This document shows positions 21,907 through 32,406 of a DNA stretch of 64,000 nucleotides, one piece after another. The notes beneath the pieces are model-generated. The model did not search any database. It was not told where the DNA came from and was given only the letters and a program-made list of their open reading frames with translations. The translations under genes were made by a program, and so were the position numbers. Position 1 is the stretch's first letter. Every line of letters begins with the position of its first letter. Source of the DNA: an uncultured Acidobacteriota bacterium (GTDB lineage Bacteria > Acidobacteriota > JAQAZP01); the NCBI GenBank assembly GCA_963836075.1, contig CAWIIB010000009.1, forward strand, positions 1,152,001 through 1,216,000, written 5' to 3'.

Positions 21907-22190
21907 CAAAAAAACGGGGCGCCGCTGAACGGCGCCCCTCAATGTGCATCGGACAGGACGTTCTCGCTTATCCCACCGCTTCGCCCACCAGTTCCTCCTC
22001 TTCCTCGAACTCCGGTTCCGTTGCCGGGCCGGAATCCGCTTCCATGGTGTCTCCGGGCTGGTAGCGGCCCTCGAGGATCGCCATGGCCAGCGGGCCCATC
22101 AGCTCGCGCTGGATCACTCTTTTGAGCGGCCGGGCGCCATACTGCGGGTCGAAGCCCTTCTCGGCCAGCAGGTCCAGGGCATCCTTGCTC
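21907..22190 (-). repeat. Displaced, diverged duplicate of the clpB 3' end plus its terminator (partner copy 29690-30009)
   Basis: Encodes [46 protein letters not shown]...[20 protein letters not shown], nearly identical to the ClpB C-terminus except for a 30-bp in-frame deletion. Followed by the same CAAAAAAACGGGGCG..CGCCCC hairpin. Confidence 0.92.
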
Positions 22191-22338
22191 GGGGCGGTCA
22201 CCGCCTCGTCCTAACCCCGTGGTGAGTTGTGAAGTGCGAGCAGCGTGTGTCTTTTCGGGAAGGGAATACTATTTACAAGCGAAGTCTGAGTGGGACGAAT
22301 GGGAGCCGGCGCGAAGCCCGCGGTTGGTGGTGAGTCAC

Positions 22339-29721: not shown

Positions 29722-29750
29722 GAGGGGGATGCTCCCCATGCCGATCTGTC

Positions 29751-32406
29751 TTACCCCACCACTTCGCCCACCAGTTCCTCCTCTTCCTCGAACTCCGGCT
29801 CCATCACCGGTCCGGCGGTCCGTGAGAAGAGCAGCTGGCCCTCCGGGCCGGAATCCGCTTCCACGGTGTCACCGGGCTGGTAGCGGCCCTCGAGGATCGC
29901 CATGGCCAGCGGGCCCATCAGCTCGCGCTGGATCACACGCTTCAGCGGCCGGGCGCCATACTGCGGGTCGAAACCCTTTTCGGCCAGCAGGTCCAGGGCG
30001 TCCTCGCTCAGCGAGAGGGTCAGCCTCTGTTCGGCCAGCGTCTTCTTCGCCAGCTCCAGCTGGATCTCCACGATGCGGCGGATCTCCTCCCGTCCCAGGC
30101 TGTGGAAGACGGCGAAGTCGTCCACCCGGTTGAGGAACTCGGGGCTGAAGTGCTCCTTCAGCGATTCCATGGCCCGCTCGCTCACCTTCTCCGCATCGCG
30201 GTCGGTGAGCTGGGCGATCCAGCGGCTGCCCACGTTGGAGGTCATGATAAGCACCGTGTTGGTGAAGTCCACCGTGCGGCCCTTGCCGTCGGTGAGCCGG
30301 CCGTCCTCGAGGATCTGCAGCAGCACGTTCATCACTTCGGGGTGCGCCTTCTCCACCTCGTCGAGCAGGATCACGCTGAACGGGCGGCGGCGGACCTTCT
30401 CGGTGAGGTAGCCGCCCTCGTCGTAGCCCACATACCCCGGGGGGGCGCCGATCAGCCGGGACACCGAGTGCTTCTCCATGAACTCGGACATGTCCACCCG
30501 GACCATGGCCCCCTCGTCGTCGAAGAGGAAGTCGGCCAGGGTGCGGGCCAGCTCGGTCTTGCCCACGCCGGTGGGGCCCATGAAGAGGAAGGAGCCGATG
30601 GGGCGGTTGGGGTCCTGCAGACCGGCCCGGGCCCGGCGCACCGCCTCGCTCACCGCGGTAACGGCTTCGTCCTGGCCCACCACCCGGCGGGTCAGCCTTT
30701 CTTCCATGTGCACCAGCTTGGCTTTCTCGCTCTCCAGCATCTTGGATACGGGGATACCGGTCCAGCGGGAGACCACGGTGGCGATGTCCTCCTCCTCCAC
30801 CTCTTCCTTGAGCATCCGCTGGTCCTGCTGCAGCTCGGCCAGCCGGGTGTTGGCGGCCTTCAGCTCTTCGGCCAGGCGGCTCTGGGTGCCGTAGCGCAGC
30901 TCGGCGGCGCGGTTGAGGTCGCCGGTGCGCTCGGCACGCTCCTCATCCACGGTGGCCTGCTCGATCTCACCTTTCAGCTTGCGGATGGCGTCGATGGCCT
31001 CCTTCTCGGCCCGCCAGTGGGCCTTCTTCCGCGTGCTTTCCTCCTGCAGGTCGGCCAGCTCGCGCTTGATGTCGTTCAGCCGTTCCTTCGAGGCGGCGTC
31101 CTTCTCCTTCTTCAGCGCCTGGCGCTCGATCTCCAGCTTGGTGATCCTGCGCTCCACCATGTCGATCTCCGCCGGCATGGAATCGATCTCGATCCTGAGG
31201 TGCGAGGCGGCCTCGTCCATCAGGTCGATGGCCTTGTCCGGCAGGAAGCGGTCGGAGATGTAGCGTCCGGAGAGGGTGGCCGCGGCCACGATGGCCGAGT
31301 CCTGGATCCGCACCCCGTGGTGCACCTCGTAGCGCTCCTTGAGACCGCGGAGGATGGCGATGGTGTCCTCCACCGTCGGTTCGCCGACGTAGACCTGCTG
31401 GAAGCGGCGCTCCAGGGCGGCGTCCTTCTCGATGTATTTCTTGAACTCGTTAGCGTGGTGGCCCCTACGCAGTGCAGCTCGCCGCGGGCCAGGGCCGGCT
31501 TGAGCATGTTCGAGGCGTCCATCGACCCCTCGGCGGCGCCGGCGCCGACGATGGTGTGCATCTCGTCGATGAAGAGCACCACCTGGCCGTCCAGCTCGGT
31601 CGATCTCCTTGAGCACCGCCTTGAGGCGGTCCTCGAACTCACCGCGATACTTGGCCCCGGCGATCAGGGCGCCCATGTCGAGGGCCAGGATCCGCTTGTC
31701 CTTCAGGGTCAGCGGGATGTCGCCGGAAACCACCCGGCGGGCCAGGCCCTCCACGATGGCGGTCTTGCCCACGCCCGGGCTCGCCGATCAGCACCGGGTT
31801 GTTCTTGGTCCGCCGCGAGAGCACCTGCACCACCCGGCGGATCTCGTCGTCGCGGCCGATCACCGGGTCGAGCTTGCCCTGGCGGGCCAGCTCGGTCAGG
31901 TCGCGGCAGTAGCGGTCCAGGGCCTGGAACTTCTCTTCGGGGTTGGCGTCGGTGACCCGCTGGTTCCCGCGCAGTTCTTTCAGGGTGGAGAGCAGGCTCT
32001 CCGGGGTGATGCCGAAACGGGCGAGCAGCTTGCCGGTGTCGCTGCCGGAGAGGCCGGCGGCGGCCAGCAGCAGATGCTCGGTGCTGACGTATTCGTCCTT
32101 GAGGTCCGAGGCGGCCTTGAAGGCCTTGTCCAGCAGTTTGCGCAGCTCTCCCGAGAGCTGGGGCTGGGCCGCATCGCCGTTCACCGACGGCTGGGCGTCG
32201 AGATTGTTGTTTACCTGGGCCGTGAGCCCGGCCAGGTCGGCACCCAGTTTCTGCACCAGCGGCAGGACGATGCCTTCCTCCTGGGTCAGCAGGGCGGCGA
32301 GCAGGTGCGCCGGGCCCACTTCGGCGTGACCCCGGCCGGCGGCCAGTTCGGCGGCCGACTGCAGCGCTTCCTGGGATTTCATGGTCAGCTTTTCGAATCG
32401 GATCAT
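29751..32406 (-). CDS. clpB: ATP-dependent chaperone ClpB (frameshifts near 31775, 31600 and 31455)
   Basis: [56 protein letters not shown], a coiled-coil M domain, [29 protein letters not shown] and YGARPLKR. Confidence 0.97.

What the first reader, a model, noticed from the sequence alone, without database searches (positions are those of the whole stretch)
21907..30009. Integrase-less 7.5-kb island bracketed by two alleles of the clpB 3' end
Seen: 21907-22190 repeats 29690-30009 (the last ~85 codons of clpB plus the terminator). Many differences are synonymous (e.g. AAG CGT vs AAA AGA for K-R), and a 30-bp in-frame deletion lies between CCGG microhomologies. Between the copies are two large secreted-protein genes, partly low in GC, and no recombinase. 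Established: integrative elements often restore their target gene and displace its old 3' end, but usually with short att sites in tRNA genes and an integrase. Inference: incoming DNA from a relative carried its own clpB end and integrated by homologous or homology-facilitated recombination.
Basis: partly seen in the sequence, partly recalled or inferred. Interest (0 to 1): 0.7.

Follow-up and report, generated by a model that had tools for sequence, protein, structure and literature searches.

The report
Rolling-circle transposon scar duplicates clpB end
Two genes sit between two different versions of the end of the chaperone gene clpB, with a worn fragment of a rolling-circle (IS91-type) transposase at the seam; they were likely carried in as a circle made by that transposon and then likely recombined into clpB, and the same pattern recurs at other housekeeping genes in this bacterium and its two relatives.

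Summary
The repeat is real: 21907-22190 copies the last ~86 codons and terminator of clpB (29690-30009). The in-frame deletion is 36 bp, not 30. Independent short-read contigs bridge the seam. The copies are two alleles (pN/pS 0.18; 0.24 pooled over 19 such repeats).

IS91 remnants lie within 200 bp of 6 of 18 displaced gene-end loci (chance 0.18; other IS pieces 0 of 18). G001 holds an intact version at acr3: displaced end, full element, oriIS, cargo, gene end.

Best reading (0.55, inferred): IS91 read-through made a circle of cargo plus clpB end, RecA integrated it, and the element then decayed, as proposed for ISCR1 complex integrons. Main rival (0.25): homology-facilitated illegitimate recombination with the IS as bystander. 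No oriIS survives here, and 12 of 18 loci lack a remnant. The architecture is known ('insertion with long target duplication'). This scan noted similar scars before, one with an IS91 driver in this genome.

The parts
21907..22190 (-). Displaced copy of the clpB 3' end: 72 alignable codons, stop at 21968-21970, a 36-bp in-frame deletion leaving one CCGG at 22024-22027, and terminator allele 'B' (hairpin 21916-21938 plus T tract)
   Evidence: Terminator B matches the displaced copy of G001 (32 matches over the first 42 nt after the stop).
22217..22337 (+). Decayed 3' end of an IS91-family (Y2 HUH) transposase gene. It still reads ...SEWDEWEPA like the C-terminus of intact copies, points toward the cargo and abuts the FG-GAP stop codon. 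oriIS (about 190 bp further on in intact copies) is missing.
   Evidence: nhmmer with a profile of 7 G000 copies: model positions 1333-1461 of 1652, E 1.3e-8, 0 hits in a reversed-genome decoy. About 70-72% identical to intact copies over 61-73 nt. The same remnant is in G001, E 1.5e-5.
22339..24937 (-). Cargo gene 2: FG-GAP repeat protein, read in two frames (23306-24937 and 22339-23514), probably one gene with an assembly indel; member of a large paralogue family of this genome
   Evidence: Pfam PF01839/PF13517; many paralogues; gap in X3 record 14. Its start and end survive fused in G001 at the same locus.
24970..29244 (-). Cargo gene 1: 1424-aa protein of unknown function, 51.9% GC, with a hydrophobic N-terminus; three paralogues elsewhere in G000
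   Evidence: No Pfam or NCBIfam hit. 20 relatives at E <= 0.001 among 1.84 billion representatives. Sub-threshold Golvesin_C in 3 of the 5 proteins scanned, all homologues. Not found in G001/G002 with this query, apart from a short 3' DNA remnant in G001.
29690..29750 (-). Terminator allele 'A' behind the resident clpB
   Evidence: Sequence; 33 matches to G002's only clpB terminator over the first 42 nt after the stop, 21-24 for cross-type pairs
29751..32427 (-). Resident clpB, read in two frames (29751-31772, 31639-32427); 29751-30009 is the repeated part
   Evidence: Pfam Clp_N, AAA_2, ClpB_D2-small; best NCBIfam hit TIGR03346, below cut-off because only the fragment was scored; intact 884/885-aa orthologues in G001/G002

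Best explanation
The 7.5-kb block lies between two alleles of the clpB 3' end with an IS91-family transposase remnant at the seam, and was likely inserted when that rolling-circle element read through its left end, likely excised a circle of cargo plus clpB end, and host recombination likely integrated the circle into an intact clpB. Steps: (1) In a donor, an IS91-like element sat in or 5' of clpB in the opposite orientation [inferred]. (2) One or two rounds of read-through from oriIS released a circle: cargo, terminator, clpB 3' part, IS, oriIS [inferred from IS91/ISCR1 biology; a unit of this make-up is seen at acr3 in G001]. (3) A single crossover in clpB restored a full gene with one allele's end and pushed the other allele's end behind the cargo and the IS [two alleles shown; crossover inferred]. 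(4) Deletions then removed oriIS, most of the transposase, the 5' part of the dead copy (259 nt left in G000, about 1030 nt in G001) and 36 bp between CCGG repeats [end state shown; order inferred]. (5) The coding parts of the two copies were later homogenised within each species by gene conversion or allele exchange [pattern shown; mechanism inferred]. The island is now an immobile scar.
For: Remnant at the seam, E 1.3e-8, decoy clean, and shared with G001 at the same cargo end but joined to a different point of clpB, as expected after independent erosion of one ancestral [clpB'][IS] join. Family identity: PF04986 + PF14319, NF033538 above cut-off, 11 PF04986 matches in G000. Association: 6 of 18 displaced-end loci have a remnant within 200 bp of the stop or a copy edge; permutation mean 0.18, maximum 3 in 3000. 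Pieces of other IS families: 0 of 18. Reverse test: 7 of 23 IS91 clusters vs 2 of 43 other-IS clusters lie at a local repeat edge, random mean 0.5. The locus list was fixed, before the IS was found. The same geometry (oriIS side facing the cargo, IS opposite to the target gene) occurs at the methionine gamma-lyase-like and lpdA loci. Intact case: G001 contig C116 reads acr3' / full transposase / oriIS-ACAT / part of a BrnT toxin-antitoxin pair / acr3 stop, has identical 141-bp ends, 3 differences in 396 nt from the resident acr3, and two different acr3 C-termini on the adjoining contigs. ISCR1-like co-oriented cases in relatives: G001 C70, G001 C84, G002 C224. Literature: read-through mobilises adjacent DNA in 1-14% of events and circles form (PMC13181058, passages); circle plus homologous recombination explains duplicated 3' segments in ISCR1 integrons (PMC7707992, passage).
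Against: No oriIS or terIS survives at this locus. 12 of 18 displaced-end loci in G000 have no detectable remnant, including glgA, sdhB, atpC and truA. Displaced copies do not start at the element's C[A/T]T cleavage motif more often than chance (4 of 16, background 0.20, p = 0.38). Dead copies and IS debris may end up adjacent simply because both are dispensable and get deleted together. The other-IS control was built by blastn from 16 Pfam hits with flanks, is noisier and less sensitive than the IS91 profile, and covers 4 families only. One of the 6 loci (the pyruvate formate-lyase-like gene) supplied two seeds of the profile. The resident coding end is no closer to G002 than the displaced one (32 vs 33 differences in 220 nt), so the donor is not identified. 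12 of 17 resident/displaced differences look derived in the displaced copy by my reading of the outgroup table, so part of the divergence is decay. The acr3 case is in a fragmented assembly: integrated copy and free circle cannot be told apart. Only two relatives exist in the genus.
Confidence: 0.55

Rival explanations
1. Homology-facilitated illegitimate recombination: transforming DNA paired through clpB, and its far end was joined illegitimately inside the recipient's clpB. The IS fragment was already at the edge of the cargo, or landed later in the dead copy as a safe haven.
For: All 3 genomes of the genus carry comEC. Repeat lengths vary from about 50 to 900 nt with no shared junction motif. 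12 of 18 loci have no IS remnant. Most published long-target-duplication cases are in competent species (PMC2853133 section 15). The same mechanism was proposed for T6SS and rhs 3'-end displacement (PMC5361080, passages).
Against: It does not predict enrichment of one IS family at the junctions (6 of 18 vs 0 of 18). At acr3 in G001 the intact IS abuts the truncated copy and the missing 5' part is not on the IS's other side, which a later insertion into a dead copy would leave. PMC5361080 calls this process several orders of magnitude rarer than homologous recombination.
Confidence: 0.25
2. Local rearrangement inside one lineage: a duplication or IS-driven shuffle copied the clpB end, and later deletions and allele exchange at the resident copy produced the two-allele look; nothing foreign came in with its own clpB end.
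For: Coding parts of the two copies group by species (14-17 differences within vs 32-47 between, in 220 nt). The cargo genes belong to families with paralogues in this genome. G002 has a TPR-like fragment behind clpB and may be a deletion derivative (my reading of the sequence).
Against: pN/pS of 0.24 is below the 0.5 expected for copy-then-decay (p = 4e-6 pooled, 0.048 for clpB alone). The two terminators are different alleles, each with an orthologue in another species. The large cargo gene has 51.9% GC vs about 64% for the genome, and its nearest paralogue is only 52-55% identical.
Confidence: 0.11
3. Eroded integrative element: an integrase-encoding island or prophage integrated in clpB with a long gene-restoring attP (as recalled for e14 and icd/icdC in E. 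coli) and lost its integrase.
For: Same overall picture of a restored gene plus displaced end (established knowledge, recalled). The junction has clearly been eroded, so a fixed att could be lost.
Against: No integrase in or near the island. The pattern recurs at 18 unrelated genes with no shared core. 0 of 80 clpB loci of unrelated bacteria show a displaced end (flanks vary from under 1 kb to 10 kb). The search for clpB as an island site returned 8 papers, none read beyond the listing.
Confidence: 0.07
4. Chimeric misassembly of two strains at clpB.
For: The assembly has indel errors in clpB and in the FG-GAP gene. No single record spans the island.
Against: Contigs of four independent runs bridge the left junction, three of them the 36-bp deletion site as well (X2, X3, X5), and one bridges the right junction. 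G001 has the same cargo end, IS remnant and terminator B.
Confidence: 0.02

Closest known systems
ISCR1-linked (complex) class 1 integrons, Toleman model (seen through passages of PMC7707992 and PMC3575428; the Toleman 2006 review itself was not held)
   Same: An IS91-family element, non-cassette cargo and a partial duplicate of the neighbouring conserved segment, explained by aberrant rolling-circle replication, a circle and homologous recombination. The oriIS side faces the cargo.
   Different: Here the anchor is a chromosomal housekeeping gene, not qacE/sul1, and many different anchors are used. At clpB the IS is opposite to the anchor, is reduced to 121 bp and has lost oriIS. The transposase is not ISCR clade Ia (NF052416 159.8 bits vs cut-off 925). 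The cargo is not resistance genes.
Insertion with long target duplication (Nobusato 2000, seen only as a reference; Furuta 2010, PMC2853133, sections 13, 15, 18 and passages read)
   Same: Integrase-free insert under 20 kb between long, imperfect direct repeats (25-423 bp there) that often span a start or stop codon and leave the target gene intact.
   Different: Defined there for restriction-modification cargo with mobile-element cases screened out and mechanism left open. Here the cargo is not RM, the copies are shown to be two alleles, the pattern is genome-wide and stacked, and an IS91 trace is present.
Sequential 3'-end displacement in T6SS effector-immunity and rhs arrays (PMC5361080, passages read)
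   Same: Polar displacement of an old 3' end by incoming DNA anchored on upstream homology; stacking of several displaced ends (seen here at sdhB in G001/G002).
   Different: There the anchor is the toxin gene and the gain is a new toxin tip; here the anchor is a housekeeping gene restored unchanged and the gain is unrelated cargo.
IS91 / IS801 / IS1294 one-ended transposition (PMC13181058 and PMC5737581, passages read)
   Same: HUH Y2 transposase family, conserved end about 200 bp past the stop, a preferred tetranucleotide after oriIS (here mostly ACAT, ACTT, CCTT or TCTT), capture of adjacent DNA.
   Different: About 34-37% protein identity to the best plasmid-borne relatives. IS91 insertion by itself makes no target duplication, so the repeat needs the separate recombination step.

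Membership tests
IS91 family (the element that left the remnant) | Y2 HUH transposase with zinc-binding domain | tested here: met
   Intact copy L156: PF04986 and PF14319 above cut-off, NF033538 151.2 vs 125. The island remnant matches the 3' end of this gene.
IS91 family (the element that left the remnant) | Conserved oriIS downstream of the transposase, followed by a preferred tetranucleotide | tested here: met
   Motif TTGAC...GGAAAGGAAATCCCTAT about 200 bp past the stop in intact and partial copies; two identical copies diverge right after ACAT. Function not assayed.
IS91 family (the element that left the remnant) | oriIS and terIS present at this clpB locus | tested here: not met
   No oriIS or left-end hit in the island with either profile.
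IS91 family (the element that left the remnant) | Rolling-circle transposition with read-through and circular intermediates | not testable with these tools
   Needs an assay. G001 contig C116 with identical ends is compatible with a circle or an integrated copy.
[quoted passage not shown] | intI1, attI1 and the qacE/sul1 3' conserved segment | tested here: not met
   The island holds only an FG-GAP gene and an unknown gene; no tyrosine recombinase in the window.
[quoted passage not shown] | ISCR clade Ia transposase | tested here: not met
   NF052416 159.8 bits, cut-off 925.
[quoted passage not shown] | IS91-type element beside non-cassette cargo with a partial duplicate of the anchor (works-like test) | tested here: met
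   Remnant at clpB; intact at acr3 in G001; co-oriented forms in G001 C70, C84 and G002 C224.
Insertion with long target duplication (Furuta 2010 criteria) | Direct repeat over 30 bp, insert under 20 kb | tested here: met
   284/320-bp copies, 7.5-kb insert.
Insertion with long target duplication (Furuta 2010 criteria) | Empty-site genome with one copy and both flanks | tested here: inconclusive
   G002 has one copy but different downstream DNA. A clean empty site exists for the neighbouring glgA case in both relatives.
Insertion with long target duplication (Furuta 2010 criteria) | Restriction-modification genes in the insert | tested here: not met
[quoted passage not shown]
   IS91-family remnant at 22217-22337, though too short for annotation-based screens to notice.
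Integrase-type genomic island (attL/attR) | Integrase in or beside the island | tested here: not met
   PF00589 hits lie outside the window. Serine recombinase families were not searched genome-wide, but no cargo ORF hits one.
Integrase-type genomic island (attL/attR) | Fixed crossover site shared between carriers | tested here: inconclusive
   The join is at -259 in G000 and about -1030 in G001, but later deletion could have moved it.
Homology-facilitated illegitimate recombination | Competence machinery in the host | tested here: inconclusive
   comEC in 3 of 3 genomes; other competence genes not searched, competence not shown.
Homology-facilitated illegitimate recombination | Microhomology at the illegitimate join | not testable with these tools
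   The donor sequence is unknown and the join is eroded.

The most novel reading that the evidence does not exclude
In this sediment genus an IS91-family rolling-circle element works as a chromosome-wide gene-capture engine. It turns the 3' ends of housekeeping genes (clpB, lpdA, acr3 and others) into portable homology arms, so cargo is delivered by RecA without an integrase. Its oriIS supplies a promoter for the cargo, and it then erodes and leaves stacks of displaced gene ends. This would be the ISCR1 complex-integron route generalised to a whole chromosome, and a mechanism for many cases of 'insertion with long target duplication'. The displaced copy could also serve as a second homology arm that lets the cassette spread by ordinary double crossover whatever lies downstream in the recipient.
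Probability: 0.35. Interest if true: 0.75.

Novelty: new variant of a known kind. Interest (0 to 1): 0.5.

Why it matters
Integrase-free islands flanked by long imperfect duplications have been described since 2000 without a settled mechanism (PMC2853133 discussion). This genome and its two relatives show the structure at many housekeeping genes, in stages from an intact IS91-like element to a 121-bp remnant to no trace. That makes a rolling-circle-plus-RecA origin directly testable. It would also mean that the route known from ISCR1 resistance regions shapes ordinary chromosomes in environmental bacteria, and that island finders relying on integrases or annotated transposases miss it. The clpB island itself is an old, immobile scar with cargo of unknown function. 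I found no paper describing this genome-wide in 8 full-text searches, but the library lacks most subscription journals, including the key ISCR reviews.

Tried and rejected
Shared att-like motif at junctions: none seen by eye across 19 junctions. Cleavage-tetranucleotide signature at displaced-copy starts: 4 of 16, not above chance. Gradient of decay from the junction: 39 synonymous / 31 non-synonymous changed codons in junction-proximal halves vs 35 / 20 in stop-proximal halves, weak and not tested statistically. Remnants of two other IS91-like subfamilies at the IS-free loci: none found. I first took the TTGACA...TATACA motif at the lpdA junction for a plain promoter; it matches the oriIS profile. 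A degenerate oriIS upstream of the large cargo gene was considered but has no profile hit. Structure of the large cargo protein: AlphaFold2 on 16 sequences gave mean pLDDT 42.6, so no fold search was run. The protein atlas was unavailable. The search for related loci with the ClpB C-terminus returned only distant clpB loci (57-65% identity), used as a control: 0 displaced ends in 1.21 Mb, about 3.3 expected at the G000 rate, p about 0.04. The same 20-kb-tile scan of G000 gave 48 downstream and 26 upstream partial hits, many of them paralogue domains because that scan had no copy-number filter. Three papers were not held, and PMC2884548 and PMC9330008 passages added little. No supplements were read; those of PMC2853133 may show IS remnants or allele patterns in its cases. 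Host taxonomy was not determined.
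Full report
Observation. The window is G000:C9:1152001-1216000 of a 6.23-Mb, roughly 64% GC assembly. 21907-22190 repeats 29690-30009, the 3' end and terminator of clpB on the minus strand. Homology starts 259 nt before the end of the stop codon. The displaced copy lacks 36 bp (not 30) between two CCGG. Over 72 codons, 9 of 52 synonymous and 5 of 164 non-synonymous sites differ. Between the copies lie a 1424-aa gene of unknown family (51.9% GC) and an FG-GAP repeat gene read in two frames. 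Short-read contigs from 4 of 4 runs laid bridge the left junction and one run bridges the right, so this is not a chimera, although no record spans the whole island.

Relatives. The genus has two other genomes. G002 has one clpB, followed by the terminator type of the G000 resident copy and by other DNA. G001 has clpB, a HEPN toxin-antitoxin-like pair, a collapsed remnant of the same cargo, and then a displaced clpB end of about 1030 nt with the terminator type of the G000 displaced copy. That copy is split over two contigs that overlap by 141 of 142 identical bases, so its continuity is inferred. Terminators group by position across species, while coding parts group by species. The event is therefore probably older than, or was exchanged between, these species, and the copies have been homogenised since. 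Which allele came in is not settled at clpB.

It is one of many. A self-comparison found 97 low-copy direct-repeat pairs. A gene-centred scan of about 4200 called genes found 20 partial 3'-end copies downstream of their gene and 2 upstream. From I kept 18 loci (19 repeats) by hand. I dropped rows that were paralogue pairs, antisense ORF calls or one tangled multi-copy locus. Anchors include lpdA, an sdhB-like gene, atpC, truA, a methionine gamma-lyase-like gene, a radical SAM gene, a pyruvate formate-lyase-like gene, a MacB transporter and a sigma-54 activator, and a glycogen synthase-like gene (glgA, named from its sequence, not scanned). Pooled pN/pS between resident and displaced copies is 0.24, below the 0.5 of copy-then-decay (p = 4e-6); frequent allele exchange at the resident copy could also lower it. 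At glgA the displaced copy keeps the flank of both relatives, so the resident end is the newcomer. sdhB carries stacked displaced ends in G001 and G002. 80 clpB regions of unrelated bacteria (1.21 Mb) gave no hit.

The missed part. G000 has 11 PF04986 matches. Weak blast hits of the island's left end seen fell at the 3' ends of those genes. A nucleotide profile of 7 copies places a remnant at 22217-22337 (E 1.3e-8; no hit in a reversed-genome decoy). It fills almost the whole gap between the displaced clpB end and the FG-GAP stop codon and still encodes the C-terminal WDEWEPA. G001 has the same remnant, shorter. Intact copies end about 200 bp past the stop in a conserved motif followed mostly by ACAT, ACTT, CCTT or TCTT, which I take as oriIS. 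That part is deleted at clpB.

Association tests. 6 of 18 loci have a remnant within 200 bp of the stop or a copy edge, against a permutation mean of 0.18 and a maximum of 3 in 3000. Placement within the loci is also unlikely by chance (product about 3e-6 for those six, a rough figure). 49 pieces of four other IS families give 0 of 18, and in the reverse direction 7 of 23 IS91 clusters vs 2 of 43 other clusters touch a local repeat edge. In the relatives I fetched 16 regions around transposase matches and an oriIS hit (not all matches). At least 5 of the 16 show a displaced gene end beside an IS piece (L177, L178, L179, L183, L184), and L188 shows a repeat of unknown nature; several regions end at contig edges. 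Against this: 12 of 18 G000 loci have no remnant, the cleavage motif is not enriched at junctions (4 of 16), and the other-IS control is cruder than the IS91 profile.

An intact example. G001 contig C116 (2796 bp) reads: 396 nt of the acr3-like (SBF family) gene, a sharp join, a full IS91-family transposase in the opposite orientation, oriIS followed by ACAT, part of a BrnT toxin-antitoxin pair, then the stop and 3' end of acr3 again. Its two ends are identical over 141 bp, the copies differ at 3 of 396 sites, and the neighbouring contigs give two different acr3 C-termini. This is the clpB arrangement before decay. Whether it is integrated or a free circle cannot be told from the assembly; both fit the model. 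The same orientation is seen as remnants at the methionine gamma-lyase-like and lpdA loci of G000, and the co-oriented, ISCR1-like form in G001 C70 and C84 and G002 C224.

Mechanism. IS91-family elements start rolling-circle replication at oriIS, miss terIS in 1-14% of events, carry adjacent DNA, form circles and make no target duplication (PMC13181058, passages; PMC5737581, passages). For ISCR1 integrons the duplicated 3' segment is explained by such a circle recombining into its homologous segment (PMC7707992, passage; PMC3575428, passages). Applied here: a circle of cargo, terminator, clpB end and IS recombined into an intact clpB, giving displaced end / IS / cargo / restored clpB, and deletion did the rest. 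Shown: two alleles, the remnant and its position, the enrichment, the intact analogue. Inferred: the donor state, circle formation, the crossover and the order of deletions. I give this 0.55, homology-facilitated illegitimate recombination with a bystander IS 0.25, local rearrangement 0.11, an eroded integrase island 0.07 and misassembly 0.02.

Comparison with what is known. The architecture is 'insertion with long target duplication' (PMC2853133; sections 13, 15, 18 and passages), but without RM cargo and with a mobile-element trace. It works like an ISCR1 complex integron but is not one: no intI1, no 3' conserved segment, and not the ISCR clade Ia transposase. It parallels 3'-end displacement in T6SS and rhs arrays (PMC5361080, passages). 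The e14/icd parallel is recalled, not looked up. Eight searches showed no report of IS91-linked displacement of housekeeping gene ends across a chromosome; most hits were seen as listings only and the main ISCR reviews were not held. This scan has noted displaced-end scars before in this genome and in other genomes, and IS91 right-end remnants around a cassette in another genome.

Verdict. Real, old and immobile; a new variant of a known kind. The single island is modest. The series from intact element to bare scar across a genus is what makes it worth following. Interest 0.5.

Noticed in passing
G000:C9:1143114-1145529 (about 7-9 kb left of the window); L031, L034: Clean case at a glycogen synthase-like gene: 176-bp displaced 3' end, 2-kb insert with small toxin-antitoxin-like genes and an FG-GAP fragment; both relatives have the empty site and the displaced copy keeps their flank. 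No IS remnant detected.
   Followed up: yes
L156 (G001:C116:1-2796): Intact IS91-family element with cargo between two alleles of the acr3 3' end; contig ends identical over 141 bp (circle or integrated repeat).
   Followed up: yes
L038 (G000:C9:2036940-2036971), L035 (C9:1916166-1916244): The oriIS motif contains a TTGAC-spacer-TATAC sigma-70-like outward promoter. A pyruvate kinase gene starts about 25 bp behind one copy, and two tandem copies precede a subtilase cargo gene.
   Followed up: partly
L035 vs L137 (G001:C133): The subtilase cargo at lpdA is 96% identical to a G001 gene at a different locus, above the roughly 88-93% of core genes, and carries its oriIS there too: recent movement between species and sites.
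   Followed up: partly
L036, L160-L162: Stacked, internally deleted copies of the sdhB-like 3' end in G001 and G002, separated by small cargo genes.
   Followed up: partly
L040 (G000:C9:2819129-2819297 vs 2822673-2822841): The mirror case: a displaced 5' end plus upstream region of a class I fumarate hydratase gene, 3.4 kb upstream of the gene.
   Followed up: no
window 7886-21906: A further 14-kb block (CHAT-TPR protein, subtilase, secreted-type paralogues, AbiEii pair at 20779-21905) lies between the displaced terminator and the VIT/vWA gene and is absent at this place in G001; no close orthologue was found in G001 or G002.
   Followed up: partly
window 31560-31800 and 23300-23720: Frameshifts in clpB and in the FG-GAP gene are probably assembly indel errors; short-read contigs show single-base gaps there and the relatives' clpB is intact.
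   Followed up: partly
L031:15261-15364 (G002): A ~100-bp AT-rich element with terminal inverted repeats sits directly behind the clpB terminator, followed by a fragment of a TPR-like gene.
   Followed up: no
L050 (G000:C9:3420208-3427024); C9:2650335-2654543; C1:1273216-1277270: The cargo pair (large unknown protein plus FG-GAP gene) has a paralogous pair elsewhere; another paralogue of the large gene starts just behind the displaced truA end.
   Followed up: partly
G000:C9:206900-211212: A gene lies between the left end and the 3' end plus oriIS of an IS91-like element whose middle is gone, like a non-autonomous cargo-carrying derivative; a second oriIS follows the acr3 stop.
   Followed up: no
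window 29369-29417: A (GGAC)n-type tandem tract upstream of the large cargo gene; its paralogous locus has a similar tract.
   Followed up: no
window 17443-20625 and many other genes: Many secreted-type proteins of this genus share a ~110-aa C-terminal domain ending in a PYNQPPY-like motif, with no Pfam hit in the protein scanned here.
   Followed up: no
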